Position numbers and translations under genes: made by a program
Notes under the pieces: generated by a model
What the model saw: the letters and a program-made list of their open reading frames with translations, nothing else
Told to the model about the DNA's origin: nothing
Databases searched by the model: none
DNA from: Eledone cirrhosa
Taxonomy: Eukaryota
NCBI GenBank assembly: GCA_964016885.1
Contig: OZ024740.1
Span: 344,100,001 to 344,164,000, forward strand
DNA: 64,000 bases
Direction: 5' to 3'
Shown here: positions 13,942-18,634 of the stretch, in pieces
How the letters are laid out: the number at the start of each line of letters is the position of its first letter
How positions within the stretch are numbered: position 1 is the first letter of the stretch

Positions 13942-14139
13942 TAACGAAGGAAATGTGGTAAGGAACCAGATGGACCCTAACGCACCAAAGTACTCAATAC
14001 TTAGGGTAGTAGAGTGGGTAATAGGAACAAGTATGACCCCGACGGCAGAGCTCATGCCGTTTCGACGGCTAATTCTGGACATTAGAATTAGCTGTCGAAA
14101 CGGCTTGGGGTCTGCCGTCGGGGTCATACTTGTTCCTAT
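13942..14139 (-). mobile_element. Family B copy with fold-back hairpin 14021-14139
   Basis: ~56-bp arms around loop GGACATT (14077-14083); (TA)n on both sides. Confidence 0.85.
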
Positions 14140-14159
14140 ATATATATATATATATGTAC

Positions 14160-14310
14160 GTCAATACTCATCTTTTTCCATTTCTCCGAGGGTTCTTAAC
14201 CCCACTATCAGACTAAATAATTTTCTTTAATTTCTTTAGTCAAAATACGGCGATAGCTTACATTTATAATTTCAAACCCACTCGCTGTTTCGAAAATGTG
14301 CTTGCTTGAT
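14160..14310. mobile_element. Short (TA)n-embedded repeat, family F (second copy 19572-19740)
   Basis: Both copies share ACTCATCTTTTTCCATTTCTCCGAGGGTT..CCCCACTATCAG and lie between (TA)n tracts. Confidence 0.7.
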
Positions 14311-14489
14311 ATATATATATATATATATATATATATATATATATATATATATGTGGTATTTTCTTCGGGGTTATAAGTGGCTTAGCTCTGTTTCTCGACC
14401 GTTATATCGCGTGACTATCTCCCCCTCCGCCTTTTGGGATTCTTTCTCACGTCGTGTAGACGCGTTCTTGAGACTAGTAAAATGAGGTA

Positions 14490-14579
14490 TCCTCTTGATA
14501 AGTCGGCAGACCTCGCAGGGACTCTATATCTTTATGAAGTATTGTTTTTGTTTATGCCACGAAACTACGTAGTCGAGGA
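14490..14579 (+). ncRNA. Type I hammerhead ribozyme motif, U3-A8 core variant
   Basis: tcctc-TTGATAA-gtcggc...gccac-GAAAC-tacgta-GTC-gagga. 5-bp stem I, palindromic stem III, GUC site. Confidence 0.75.
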
Positions 14580-14799
14580 ATCTAGGAGCAGTTTAGGTAT
14601 GATACATTTTATTACTAATTATATCTAAATGTTTCTTCTCTCTTCATAATATATATATATATATATATATTGTAGATGTTGTATATATATATATATATAT
14701 ATATATATATATATATATATATATATATATATATATATATATATATATATATATATATATATATATATATATATATTCACACACACCCATGCCAGTTTA

Positions 14800-15465
14800 A
14801 TACCGTGCCACACACTATCTTAATCATCTATAGTTAGAATGAATTCCTAAAACTGAATATACTCATACAGATTTAGTAGTGTGATGACAATAATCAATTA
14901 GGGTTATATATAAAATTAATACAACTAATATCAACCAAGTAAGAAATCAAATCAATTAAAAAAATAATATATAAAGAATATTGATACCCAAACAAATGCT
15001 GGTTTCACCTATGCCAAACTGTTAGTGTGAGTTACGTAAATAAGTGTATATTGCAAGCGTCAGTTGTATAACAACCCGGAATTGGCTTTCGGATCTTCAG
15101 TTAGTTTGTTCGGTAAACAACATAAGGAAAAATAAATAAACTATTTTTCATATATGCTAGCAGTTGTTAGCTCTGTCTTCGTGTGTCTCTCAGCGGCTTG
15201 AAATTAAGTTGTTGTACTCGGCTGTGTTGTCTAAAAAAGGCGGCGTCTTAACGGAGAAATTCACACACGCTTTTTAATAAGCACTCCACTAGAATTATTA
15301 CTAGGAGTAAAATACTTTTAGATTTACGAAATCACACTACCACAAGATGCGTTGTGTACATATGGCTGTACAATACCGTGCCACACACTATCTTACTGAA
15401 CGATAATTGGAATGAAGTCCGGAAACACAGTTTTCTCATACAAATTTGGCCTGGTTCATCACAGT
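14800..15465. mobile_element. (TA)n-embedded insert with diverged terminal direct repeat (~14800 and ~15372), pLTR-like partial tandem
   Basis: ATACCGTGCCACACACTATCTTA..GAATGAA..CTCATACA occurs at both ends. Confidence 0.55.
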
Positions 15466-15502
15466 GATATATATATATATATATATATATATATATATAT
15501 AT

Positions 15503-15687
15503 ATTGTTTCTACTTTTGACACAAGGCCAGCAATTATCCCAGTGTATTACTGGTACTTTATTTTATCGACCCCGTAAGGATGAAAGGCAGAGTTAACCTC
15601 GACGGGATTTGAACTCAGTCCGTAAAGGGACGTAACTGTGCTGCAAAGCATGGCGCCCGACCCTCTACCGATACTGCCAATTCACCA
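15503..15687 (-). mobile_element. SINE (same family), near full length, inside (TA)n
   Basis: Reverse complement of head, core and tail. Confidence 0.9.
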
Positions 15688-16050
15688 TATATATATAAAG
15701 ACATATACATCATGTATGATAAAGTTACAAGTGTCTGGATATGATTGTTTAAAGCTGTGATCATTTCACAACTATTATAGAAGCCGTTTGAGAATGTGCA
15801 ACACCTGTTCCTGGAATGTTATCTGCCATCAGTGACACTCACTACTTCGGTTCTGAGACAAGTATAATCTTATATCATATGACAAGTATAAGCTTATGAC
15901 AAATATAATCTTATATCATATATGTCTTTTTGCGCATGAAACATCTATATATCTCTATATGTTGTGTGCATTAGGATAGTTTATTGTGCACGCATGTAGC
16001 TATATGAGTGAATATCGGTTCATTATCATGATGAGCAGTGGAAAAATAAT

Positions 16051-16242
16051 TGTTTCTACTTTGGCACAAGGCCAGCAAACCCCGTGCATTACTGGTACTT
16101 TATTTCATCGACCCCGTAAGGATTAAAGGCAAAGTTAACCTCGGCGGGATTTGAACTCAGAATGGCAAGGGCCGTAAGTCTATGCGTCAAAGCATGGCGT
16201 CCGACTATCTACCGATACTGCCAATCCATCGCCCTTGGAGAT
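16051..16242 (-). mobile_element. Full-length SINE with 13-bp target-site duplication
   Basis: GTGGAAAAATAAT at 16038-16050 and 16243-16255 flanks the element. Confidence 0.9.
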
Positions 16243-17199
16243 GTGGAAAAATAATGACTACCGTTATGTAGGGTAGGATAACATATATTCAAAGCAAAGT
16301 CTGAGTAAATCGAGTTTCCCATGTCCGATAAATAAGCACACGCACACCTACACATCCGATTCGTTAGCTATAGGTAAATTCTGATCGACCAAACCTATTC
16401 AAGTCATATTTATATGGTTTTTAGGGGTCTGTATGAATACTGTATCTAATGGGTGCTTCCCTTAGTTACGATGTTTGTGTGTGACCTGAAAGTATTTAGA
16501 CTCTATTTCTAACTGGCCAATAGAACACTTTGATGGGCCATAAATCTTATTGTGAAGGGAGATGAAACAAGAGACCAAAAGAAATTCAAATTATGCCGTG
16601 AAAAGATGAACAGAAAAAGGCAAATAAATCTAAAAAAATCAGAGAACAACAGGTTGTTCACACTAATACAAGAAATCACAATAAAAGTAGATCAAGAGAA
16701 CAAGCTCTAATAATATAAACAATAATTTATAATATCAAGTTAAAGTTTGCAGTATCATCACCAGCAGACACAGCAGCAGTGATATCACGGAAAGGACCAG
16801 CAACATCTTCCTCAACAACAATAACAACGTAATATAAAACTGACAAGCACTGCAATGGCTACAGCAGTAACAGTTAACAGCATACACACTATCCACAAAT
16901 CTGTGAAGCTATACTATAATCAACGTCATTCCATTGATAGCAACGTGAAATAATCGTCAAGCCGAGATAATGTAATCGAGCGGTAAAGATGGCGACCAGA
17001 CTTTTTGTAGCTAATTTGTAATACTCAGCAGCGAGCAACAGGAAATTATCCCAATCACTGAGGCATACGTTCATCAAATTATATATGATGACTGATGTGT
17101 ATTTTATATAGTCAATTGACGCTGGAAACATCGTTTCCTGTCATGATCACCCTCGTTAAGGAACACTGAATTTGGTTGGCTACGAAATAAATGACCGTT

Positions 17200-17480
17200 T
17201 ATATTTATTTTGTATTTCTTTTTTTTTTGTAAGAAAATAGCTTTTAAACAAATTGTGCTATGATGTTTAGCTCGAAGGACAGAACCAGAATTATGTAAAA
17301 CAGATAAAAAATTACCTTTCAAATATTTTAAAAAGAAATAATAACGAATCCTCGAATAACTGTGGCCAGAATCACTGGATAGTTAGATGTTTCCCAAATA
17401 TATCAATGTATGTTAAAATATCATTTACTTCTCAATGAGCATTGGATGAAGTTTGCAAACATGTGATTCCATCTTATATT
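17200..17480 (-). mobile_element. Possible very old hAT transposase C-terminal remnant
   Basis: Broken frames WETSNYPVILA...SGSVLRAKH...AIFL loosely resemble the hAT dimerisation domain. Confidence 0.25.
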
Positions 17481-17685
17481 TGAACTTGTAAATCATGTAA
17501 AATACACTTTTGCTTCAGCAACTACTATTTCCAGAAACAGATGTTTTCGTTTTTTTTGCGCAACTGAAGAATATGAGAAAATGGGACATTAGATGCCATG
17601 CTGCAATTTTTTCAGGTAGAATCAGTTGCCATAATTAACCCTCTGAAAACATATCTACATTATTTAGATTATTGAAATGGAATAA

Positions 17686-17855
17686 TGGATTCTGATTTAG
17701 ACACAGGGCCAGCAGTTTTAGGGGAGGGGAAAGTCGATGAAATCGACCTCAGTGCATTACTGGTGCTTTATTTTATCGACCCCGTATGGATGAAAGGCCA
17801 AATCTCGGCTGGATTTACGTTCTGAACTCAGAACATAAAGGGCCGTAACTATGCG
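17686..17855 (-). mobile_element. SINE (same family)
   Basis: Reverse complement of core and tail. Confidence 0.85.
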
Positions 17856-18314
17856 AACCCTTACGATCCAGTAGAAAACGCCTGAAAAACTAATAAAATA
17901 TGCAATAGAAAGAGTATATTTATTATTCTTTGTATTGAAACATGTAATACATAGCTGATATAACTTTCCCTGTATTATTATATGCCTGAAACGATATAGA
18001 ATTAAGATTAGATCCTTCTCTTACGCAGTTATTTCGCATACGTTAAATATTTAAAGGTAAAATCTTAAAAGAGAAACAGGCGCTTTAACAGACAAATTAG
18101 GCAGGTGCAGCCATTGGTACATTAACACTTTGTGAGCAAAATATTATAGAAAGGAAATTTGCAGAAGTTGCATATAACTAAAAATAAGAGTAGTATTTGA
18201 TGCACGTGTGTTTGTGTGTAGGGGGGCGGGGGAGTTCCGGGTTCAATCAGGGGTAACCACAGTAAGTAATGTTCTCAGTACAAGAGTAGAGTGTAAACAT
18301 CAGGTTTAATATAG

Positions 18315-18409
18315 AAATGGTTTCCATAGGACTAGAACTGTTTCATGCGAAATCATCAGGAAAGCAGTTTCGTTTGAATGAAACAGTTCTAGTCCTGTAG
18401 AAACCATTT
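18315..18409. mobile_element. Fold-back hairpin containing an HHR core, family C (relatives ~50200-50270 and ~62620-62690)
   Basis: Arms 18315-18346 and 18378-18409; the minus strand has CTGATGA-tttcgcat-GAAAC. Confidence 0.65.
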
Positions 18410-18440
18410 GTATACACACACACACATATATATATATATG

Positions 18441-18634
18441 TAGAAAAATGTTCAAGACCCGACGGCAGAACTCAAGCCGTTTCGACGGCTATTTCATTCG
18501 AAAAATAGCCGTCGAAACGGCTTGAGCTCTGCCGTCGGGGTCTTGAAATTCCTATTACCCACTCTACTACCCTAAGTATTGAGTACTCTGGTGCGTTATG
18601 GTCCACCTGGTTCCTTACCACACTTCCTTCGTTA
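18441..18634 (+). mobile_element. Family B copy with fold-back hairpin ~18451-18547
   Basis: Arms CAAGACCCGACGGCAGA..CCGTTTCGACGGCTATTT / AAATAGCCGTCGAAACGG..GCCGTCGGGGTCTTG. Confidence 0.85.

What the first reader, a model, noticed from the sequence alone, without database searches (positions are those of the whole stretch)
13942..18634. Family B copies all terminate in hammerhead stem II and often fold back on it: ribozyme-anchored self-priming
Seen: five dispersed copies (2501, 13942, 18441, 52107, 54191) carry only the 3' half of a hammerhead, namely stem II, GAAAC, stem III (GGC-loop-GCC), GTC and GGG. Stem III co-varies in the 54191 copy (GAC/GTC). None retains CTGATGA. In the 13942 and 18441 copies the missing half is replaced by the reverse complement of the element itself, giving ~50-bp-arm palindromes centred on the stem II loop; 54191 shows a short version. 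Inference: cDNA synthesis stalls at the ribozyme hairpin and snaps back to prime the second strand. That would give a sequence-defined origin for the inverted 5' ends typical of Penelope-like insertions, or point to a small non-autonomous hairpin element mobilised by PLEs.
Basis: partly seen in the sequence, partly recalled or inferred. Interest (0 to 1): 0.72.

Follow-up and report, generated by a model that had tools for sequence, protein, structure and literature searches.

The report
Penelope stubs fold at promoter start
These hairpins are short head-to-head ends of a very abundant Penelope-type jumping gene, and their fold point likely marks where the element's capped RNA begins, inside its ribozyme, with the two halves likely copied separately from the two sides of the cut chromosome rather than by one strand snapping back.

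Summary
The five copies are real, but not all stop at stem II: the copy at 52107 runs about 390 bases further. They are truncated ends of a Hydra-clade Penelope-like element (3.1-kb unit, RT plus GIY-YIG-type endonuclease; 12,175 exact tail matches). Long copies carry a complete hammerhead with the known UUGAAAA core, so the absence of CTGATGA shows nothing. The junction hotspot is real: 99 of 164 arm ends lie in 9 bases of loop II, peaking at the A of an initiator-like TTAGT, about 30 bases below a TATA-like word. Where both arms reach that A with one base between, it is a non-templated G:C pair in 44 of 50 and, in a second subfamily, 19 of 22 cases, as a copied RNA cap would give. Snap-back fails: 0 of 100 stem II fold-back products, and the tail-less arm is often the longer one (15 of 21). 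Best reading: two cDNAs, primed at two fixed starts, run off a capped 5' end and join. No RNA data test this; one cap test was neutral. This scan noted the same on other families of this genome.

The parts
13944..14080 (-). Copy 13942, tailed arm: from +2 through the 3' half of the hammerhead, past the first fixed end, to the end of the 78-base tail; abuts (TA)n
   Evidence: sequence
14081..14083 (.). Three non-element bases at the head-to-head junction of copy 13942
14084..14136 (+). Copy 13942, short arm: from +6 to the first fixed end (TTCC then TA); abuts (TA)n
18441..18495 (-). Copy 18441, short arm: from +7 to the first fixed end
18496..18502 (.). Seven junction bases of copy 18441
18503..18632 (+). 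Copy 18441, tailed arm: from +8; GAAAC at 18514, predicted cleavage triplet ending at 18536, tail to 18632
2501..2651 (-). Copy 2501 (second subfamily), tailed arm reaching about -10; +1 at 2641
2659..2680 (+).
52108..52610 (-). Copy 52107, tailed arm reaching about -393 into the 3' UTR; a 24-base deletion removes the stem I 5' strand, the core and the stem II 5' strand
52620..53012 (+). Copy 52107, inverted piece (element positions -888 to -546, then -181 to -100): end of the endonuclease region and 3' UTR; its 3' end is lost
54200..54335 (+). Copy 54191, older diverged relative: 8-bp inverted remnant (54200-54207) and a tailed arm that starts near +1 by eye alignment (54208); stem III double change GAC/GTC

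Best explanation
The copies are 5'-truncated, head-to-head ends of a Hydra-clade Penelope-like retrotransposon, and their junctions pile up at one base inside hammerhead loop II that is likely the capped transcription start, where two likely independently primed cDNAs run off the RNA and are joined. Shown: the parent unit (3,113 bases, pLTR-ORF-pLTR), the complete hammerhead fold in long copies, two fixed 3' ends 78 bases apart, the hotspot, the extra G:C pair at +1, and the arm asymmetry. Inferred: (1) RNA polymerase II starts at the A of TTAGT, about 30 bases below TATTTA, so the RNA leader carries only the 3' half of the ribozyme; (2) the endonuclease cuts a TA tract and both DNA ends prime cDNA, one at each fixed start; (3) priming in the leader copy of the starts gives 60- and 140-base cDNAs that run off the cap and gain a C, while priming in the downstream pLTR gives long arms; (4) the two cDNA 3' ends are joined by a template jump or short annealing, with trimming to +1..+8.
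For: Parent: ORF pieces with DKT, YRDDG, CxCx5C, a YIG motif, CxxC and CxH match the Hydra definition; tandem unit in L256. Hotspot: 99 of 164 arm ends in -1..+8, mode +1 with 24 arms, only 11 in -7..-2 (first 100 genomic matches in order, minus 5 second-subfamily loci and 1 duplicate). Promoter: TATTTA lies 29-31 bases before +1 in 52 of 61 arms; native -1 is T in 96 and C in 4 of 100, never G. Cap-like base: the single centre base is G:C in 44 of the first 50 of 213 places and in 19 of 22 in a second subfamily whose upstream sequence differs; both arms carry it in 6 of 50 and 5 of 50; the first non-native base is C 18 times against T 4 times. Not clonal: the G sits on the tailed arm in 23 and the short arm in 14 of 41 junctions, over at least four haplotypes, none with two tails. 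Two primers: tail-less arm longer in 15, tailed arm longer in 5, equal in 1 of 21 long insertions; complete-ribozyme arms end at the short start in 27 and the tail in 26 of 55; L116 and L151 have arms of different recurring haplotypes. In vitro, a Penelope protein nicks and extends both strands from two starts that bound the tail, and ribozyme cleavage is not needed (PMC11167929). An extra G from a copied cap is reported for L1 and SVA (PMC2912911).
Against: The start is inferred from DNA only. Solo arms joined directly to TATA show no G excess (T 81, C 9, G 8, A 2 of the first 100 of 293). The genome-wide G:A ratio before +1 (2,375:291) is confounded: in 25 of 43 inspected arms the G can also be read as the last base of the partner arm. 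Many junctions lie a few bases upstream of +1: in the 2,788 palindromes with 2-8 centre bases, 67 of the first 100 arm ends continue with the native A, often to zero-loop AAA|TTT centres, so starts must be heterogeneous or longer cDNAs anneal there. TATTTA overlaps stem II, so its conservation is not independent. Arms usually share a haplotype (39 of 46 within one difference, against 41.5% of random pairs), which snap-back also predicts. Deletions after insertion could create part of the arm asymmetry. The hammerhead has no Rfam hit and no significant covariation within the subfamily; its activity is untested.
Confidence: 0.65

Rival explanations
1. Two cDNAs are primed as above, but the hotspot comes from local self-complementary words near loop II (AATT, CTAATTTAG, TCCAGA, GAGCTC) where long cDNAs anneal; no transcription start lies there.
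For: Zero-loop centres at AAA|TTT are common; single junctions sit on GAGCTC (L190) and TCTAGA (L138); no G excess in solo arms.
Against: Annealing of native sequence gives an A:T centre, yet 44 of 50 are G:C. The second subfamily lacks those words upstream but centres on the same base with the same G:C. The mode is at +1 with a sharp upstream edge.
Confidence: 0.2
2. One reading: the RT stalls at the ribozyme hairpin and the cDNA snaps back to prime its own second strand.
For: Junctions do lie in loop II; arms mostly share a haplotype; self-priming was proposed for Penelope palindromes (PMC3846280).
Against: 0 of 100 stem II fold-back products; no peak 3' of the helices, where a stall would fall; 0-1-base centres; the tail-less arm is longer in 15 of 21 long insertions and in 29 of 70 short ones by 5 bases or more, of which about 14 remain after internal deletions are set aside by eye; some arms come from different haplotypes.
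Confidence: 0.07
3. A non-autonomous hairpin element with a fixed centre is amplified as a unit by Penelope proteins.
For: Stubs greatly outnumber long copies (14 of 164 arms reach -8 or beyond); one haplotype makes up 46 of 92 arms.
Against: Junctions differ from copy to copy; the centre G faces either way relative to the tail and recurs in several haplotypes and two subfamilies. Stubs may still be transcribed from +1 as linear templates; this was not tested.
Confidence: 0.04
4. The palindromes are assembly artefacts or arose after insertion by repair at TA tracts.
For: Palindromes and microsatellites are hard to assemble; no listed contig spanned the whole 13942 copy.
Against: Contigs of public runs show opposite-strand joints at L140 3914-3922 (+1 = 3919) in 11 of the 12 such joints listed (one study, possibly the same sample); arms differ from each other by substitutions; the fixed ends match known Penelope biology.
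Confidence: 0.04

Closest known systems
Hydra clade of C-terminal-endonuclease Penelope-like elements, e.g. Hydra-1_Obim (Craig et al. 2021, PMC8557442; passages, section 11 and supplement passages seen)
   Same: Single ORF with RT then endonuclease, DKT, CxCx5C linker, CxxC and CxH, (TA)n targets, hammerhead in the pLTR, unit near 3 kb.
   Different: A different family: three of its DNA words are absent from their supplement. The ribozyme has a U3:A8 core, a long loop II and a full stem III; the tail is 78 bases instead of 30-40; most copies are leader-sized stubs.
Insertion unit with inverted 5'-truncated pLTR and one-sided tail (Adineta Pen families, PMC3846280; passages and Discussion seen)
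   Same: Head-to-head arms, tail on one arm only, palindromic junction.
   Different: That paper reads the palindromes as self-priming, possibly on an antisense template; here the arm asymmetry and the cap-like base point to two sense-templated cDNAs ending at the RNA start.
Poseidon_Ac in vitro system (Frangieh et al. 2024, PMC11167929; parts 1-2 of 4 read)
   Same: Two RT starts bounding the tail, both target strands nicked and extended, AT-rich target, ribozyme cleavage not needed.
   Different: In the parts read, how the inverted arm and the 5' junction form is left open and no capped template is tested; there the ORF starts in stem II, here about 180 bases after +1.
D. virilis Penelope promoter (Schostak et al. 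2008, PMC2377424; passages seen)
   Same: Transcript starts inside the pLTR at an initiator.
   Different: TATA-less, with the start 46 bases before an intron whose end maps to helix I (PMC4209133), so upstream of the ribozyme; here the inferred start is inside loop II.
L1 twin priming and cap-derived extra G (Kojima 2010, PMC2912911; passages seen)
   Same: Both target ends prime; the two cDNAs anneal by short complementarity; full-length copies carry a reverse-transcribed cap.
   Different: L1 twin priming inverts non-overlapping parts of one RNA; here both arms cover the same stretch from two fixed starts, giving a palindrome.
U3:A8 hammerheads of Schistosoma PLEs (Cervera and De la Pena 2014, PMC4209133; parts 1-2 of 4 and supplement file 2 passages seen)
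   Same: UUGAAAA core, unpaired base after the core, palindromic loop III.
   Different: Those are minimal motifs without a stable helix III; this one has a 5-bp helix III and an extended, bulged helix I.

Membership tests
Penelope-like element, endonuclease-positive | Single ORF with RT and GIY-YIG-type endonuclease | tested here: met
   RT motifs (FDIES, SMGA, YRDDG) and a YIG motif seen in translations of L191, L192, L196, L256; all copies seen are broken. Pfam gave no hit in 6 of 6 pieces and the PDB search no relevant hit, so this rests on motifs and likeness by eye to the Hydra proteins.
Penelope-like element, endonuclease-positive | Partial tandem forming pLTRs | tested here: met
   L256: pLTR, ORF, pLTR, period 3,113 bases.
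Penelope-like element, endonuclease-positive | Inverted 5'-truncated copy and one-sided tail | tested here: met
   70 of 94 unbiased insertions have an inverted arm; 37 of 41 junctions have exactly one tailed arm, none two.
Hydra clade | DKT instead of DKG; RWK motif | tested here: met
   SDKTG present; RWR in place of RWK in L191 (definition).
Hydra clade | CxCx5C linker; CxxC and CxH around the late endonuclease residues | tested here: met
   CNCPDRSTC, CHLC or CNLC, and CKH in L060, L196, L256.
Hydra clade | (TA)n insertion preference | tested here: met
   176 of 183 tail matches are followed by a TA run within 26 bases (overlapping loci not removed).
Hydra clade | Placement in the RT phylogeny | not tested
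   Reference proteins were seen only as paper text; no tree was built.
Type I hammerhead ribozyme | Three helices around a C3:G8 or U3:A8 core, GAAA and an NUH site | tested here: met
   The minimum-energy fold of L140 has hammerhead topology, z -2.67, 1 of 200 shuffles as good; core TTGAAAA in 29 of 42 parsed arms.
Type I hammerhead ribozyme | Covariation of the helices | tested here: inconclusive
   14 of 55 close copies aligned: 93.8% paired, 1 double change, not above shuffles; the consensus fold differs; one double change in stem III of copy 54191; no Rfam hit.
Type I hammerhead ribozyme | Self-cleavage | not testable with these tools
   Needs an in vitro assay.
Capped RNA polymerase II start (TATA-initiator) | Initiator with a TATA-like word about 30 bases upstream | tested here: met
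   TTAGT or TCAGT; spacing 29-31 in 52 of 61. The initiator consensus is recalled, not from a call.
Capped RNA polymerase II start (TATA-initiator) | Non-templated G at the 5' end of retrocopies | tested here: inconclusive
   Met in palindrome centres (44 of 50, 19 of 22); not met in solo arms; partly confounded genome-wide.
Capped RNA polymerase II start (TATA-initiator) | RNA 5' ends mapped at +1 | not testable with these tools
   Needs CAGE or cap-dependent RACE.
Non-LTR retrozyme | Non-coding tandem units each with a complete hammerhead | tested here: not met
   The unit is a 3.1-kb coding element; stubs are dispersed and carry half a ribozyme.

The most novel reading that the evidence does not exclude
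This Penelope family starts its capped RNA inside its own hammerhead, so the leader cannot self-cleave, and every insertion is made of two strong-stop-like cDNAs, one from each end of the cut target, fused through the copied cap. That would explain the inverted pLTR, the one-sided tail and the palindrome of all Penelope insertions by one double-ended priming mechanism, and let promoters be mapped from DNA alone.
Probability: 0.55. Interest if true: 0.7.

Novelty: new variant of a known kind. Interest (0 to 1): 0.48.

Why it matters
How Penelope-like elements make their inverted ends and one-sided tail is stated as open in the papers read (PMC8557442, PMC3846280, PMC11167929). This family supplies thousands of natural insertion products that discriminate between the models: they argue against self-priming and for two primers ending at a capped RNA start, and give base-exact predictions for the existing in vitro system. 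The element itself is an ordinary Hydra-clade member; the variant is the inferred start inside the ribozyme. Eight full-text searches showed no paper linking Penelope inversion junctions to a cap or start site, but subscription papers are not covered, and this scan reached similar readings on other families of the same genome.

Tried and rejected
Intron-split ribozyme (a branch-point-like word and AG precede stem II): dropped, because the 5' half lies 31-33 bases upstream without an intron and junction sequences are not constant. Ribozyme cleavage as the source of 5' ends: the cut is at +41; only 1 of 100 tailed arms was called at +42. Rfam on the window gave only microsatellite-driven matches among the 150 of 207 listed and nothing relevant on a complete copy. 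Pfam and PDB searches of the ORF pieces were blank. No RNA holder listed. Contig depth rises steeply near +1, but it is not a copy number and was not used. No listed contig spanned the whole 13942 copy. The first breakpoint run used a reference without a tail and failed for the tailed arm; gapped extension over-ran junctions and was replaced by a strict ungapped rule, which still mis-calls about seven arms with internal deletions. No long copy of the second subfamily was found among the loci held, so its stem II 5' strand is unseen. Target-site duplications cannot be read in TA tracts. Supplement file 1 of PMC4209133 could not be searched and may bear on the ribozyme comparison.
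Full report
Observation. All five copies exist and are homologous. Each shows the 3' half of a hammerhead. Copies 13942 and 18441 are palindromes with arms of about 53-55 bases; one arm continues into a 78-base extension, and both ends abut (TA)n. Copy 2501 has a short inverted arm too. Copy 52107 does not stop at stem II: it runs to about 390 bases upstream, has lost the ribozyme 5' half by a 24-base internal deletion, and meets an inverted piece far upstream. 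So the claim holds for four of five copies.

The family. The own genome is 3.0 Gb. A 29-base word of the extension has 12,175 exact matches. Walking upstream gave a parent: a 3,113-base unit in partial tandem (L256) whose broken ORF has RT motifs, DKT, a CxCx5C linker, a YIG motif, CxxC and CxH. These are the marks that Craig et al. give for the Hydra clade (PMC8557442, section 11). It resembles Hydra-1_Obim by eye, but three of its DNA words are absent from their supplement. Pfam and PDB gave nothing; no tree was built.

The ribozyme. Long copies carry a complete type I hammerhead with core TTGAAAA (29 of 42 parsed, of 55 found), a variant already listed for a Schistosoma element (PMC4209133). 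One natural copy folds in hammerhead topology at z -2.67. There is no Rfam hit and no significant covariation among 14 close copies. Activity is untested. The lack of CTGATGA is therefore a family trait.

Breakpoints. I took the first 100 tail matches in genome order, a sample blind to 5' structure, and called both arm ends with a strict ungapped rule against natural copy L140. Five second-subfamily loci and one duplicate were dropped. Of 94 insertions, 70 have an inverted arm. Of 164 arm ends, 99 lie in -1..+8, 11 in -7..-2, 14 at -8 or beyond, 28 in +9..+41 and 12 past +41, where +1 is the A of TTAGT at the 3' edge of loop II. The mode is +1 (24 arms).

Snap-back fails. Folding back on natural stem II predicts one exact junction; it occurs in 0 of the first 100 of 1,166 matches of a pattern that admits both it and the native sequence. 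Many centres are 0-1 base wide. A copied second strand can hold only what the first strand holds, yet in 21 long insertions with both arms readable (of 25 examined; one tandem, one pair of separate insertions, one complex and one tail-less locus left out) the tail-less arm is longer in 15, by up to 2.6 kb, the tailed arm in 5, and they are equal in 1 (read by eye). Among short insertions the tail-less arm reaches 5 or more bases further in 29 of 70 and the tailed arm in 10; about half of the 29 survive removal of internal deletions by eye. Arms with a complete ribozyme end at the short start in 27 and at the tail in 26 of 55. Most arm pairs share a haplotype (27 identical and 12 one apart, of 46), but L116 and L151 pair two different recurring haplotypes. 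Later deletions could explain some of this. In vitro, a Penelope protein nicks and extends both target strands from two starts that bound the tail (PMC11167929). In L256 the native sequence after both fixed ends begins with TA, which would anneal to the target.

What marks +1. TTAGT or TCAGT is an initiator-like word (consensus recalled), and TATTTA lies 29-31 bases before it in 52 of 61 arms, although it overlaps stem II. Native -1 is T (96 of 100) or C (4), never G. Where both arms reach +1 with one base between, that pair is G:C in 44 of the first 50 of 213 places. A second subfamily with different upstream sequence repeats this: 22 of the first 50 of 157 places have a one-base centre, 19 of them G:C. 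Both arms carry the extra base in 6 of 50 and 5 of 50 places, which a single folded strand cannot give. In 41 of the 44 G:C places, fetched for context, the G belongs to the tailed arm in 23 and the short arm in 14 (4 unclear), across several haplotypes, so the junction arose many times. An extra G from a copied cap is reported for L1 and SVA (PMC2912911).

Results against. Solo arms joined to TATA show C 9, G 8, A 2 and T 81: no cap signal. The genome-wide G:A ratio of 2,375:291 is confounded, since 25 of 43 inspected G's can belong to the partner arm. The class with 2-8 centre bases is far larger (2,788 places), and 67 of its first 100 arm ends continue natively past +1, often to self-complementary AATT centres. 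So either starts are spread over a few bases, or longer cDNAs also anneal here. No RNA test was possible.

Mechanism. Shown: architecture, fixed ends, hotspot, extra base, asymmetry. Inferred: transcription starts at +1 in the upstream pLTR, so the leader holds half a ribozyme, both RT starts (+61 and +139) and then the ORF (ATG about 180 bases after +1). Both ends of a cut TA tract prime cDNA. Priming in the leader gives short cDNAs that run off the cap; priming in the downstream pLTR gives long arms that end anywhere. The two 3' ends are joined by a jump or short annealing. Copies 13942 (+2/+6), 18441 (+7/+8) and 2501 (-10/+1) fit the first class, 52107 the second.

Artefact check. Contigs from public runs (one study, possibly the same sample) show opposite-strand joints at L140 3914-3922 in 11 of the 12 such joints listed, with +1 at 3919 (seven more joints of any kind were not shown).

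Known and new. The inverted arm, palindrome and tail are known for Penelope elements (PMC3846280; PMC8557442), and self-priming was proposed there. A start inside the pLTR is known for D. virilis (PMC2377424). My searches found no paper tying the junction to a capped start; PMC3681739, PMC8969392 and PMC13282606 (passages) and 10.64898/2026.07.22.740005 (part 1 of 5) added nothing on it. Unreviewed notes of this scan reached two-sided priming and a capped start for other families of this genome; I wrote the start-site idea down, before those look-ups, and do not count them as support. Verdict: an ordinary kind of element, a real and informative hotspot, and a different mechanism from the one proposed. 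Interest 0.48.

Noticed in passing
window 1-438: Spacerless palindrome, 97% matched over about 440 bases, centred on a TA tract and reaching the window edge; no hammerhead core found by the motif scan. Could be a fold-back insertion or an assembly feature.
   Followed up: no
window 3284-3499 and 3730-3825: Another hammerhead family with CTGATGA core: one inverted copy inside a 31-base fold-back and a second copy 250 bases away on the other strand.
   Followed up: no
window 18237-18408 and 62623-62782: Fold-back stub of an unrelated family with a CTGATGA minimal hammerhead directly beside copy 18441; a diverged relative at 62.7 kb, and another next to a family copy in L257.
   Followed up: no
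window 10579-10690, 27499-27616, 41700-41819, 43834-43940, 54432-54549: Further dispersed minimal-hammerhead repeats of at least two families.
   Followed up: no
window 22513-24398: 411-base inverted repeats (97%) around an ORF with a GIY-YIG Pfam hit (23061-23720): a longer Penelope-type insertion of another family.
   Followed up: partly
window 20372-21085 and 58529-61274: Related broken RT and GIY-YIG-like frames (71% DNA identity over 614 bases), probably another Penelope-like lineage; no Pfam hit.
   Followed up: partly
window 62874-64000: Young tandem repeat of period 494 (99% identical) with a CTGATGA word on the minus strand, with diverged pieces at 25.8-26.4 kb: candidate retrozyme array.
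   Followed up: no
window 45287-49662: Non-LTR retrotransposon remains: RVT_1 hit and repeated zf-RVT-like C-terminal segments.
   Followed up: partly
window 32220-32866 and 37537-39006: A 71-base tandem array and a degenerate 14-base tandem array.
   Followed up: no
L098, L130, L169 near +13 to +41: Recurrent internal deletion between the two GCCGTC words that flank GAAAC and stem III.
   Followed up: no
L140 3944-3953 and window 54230-54243: Loop III holds a 6-base palindrome that differs between subfamilies (GAGCTC against CACGTG), as expected for ribozymes that pair as dimers.
   Followed up: no
L160 and L177, position -5: Two of the three arms that end at -5 are preceded by G: a possible second start site.
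   Followed up: no
L194 3-1067 and 5925-6644: Endonuclease-region ORFs of two other Penelope-like families beside this one, one of them Hydra-like.
   Followed up: no
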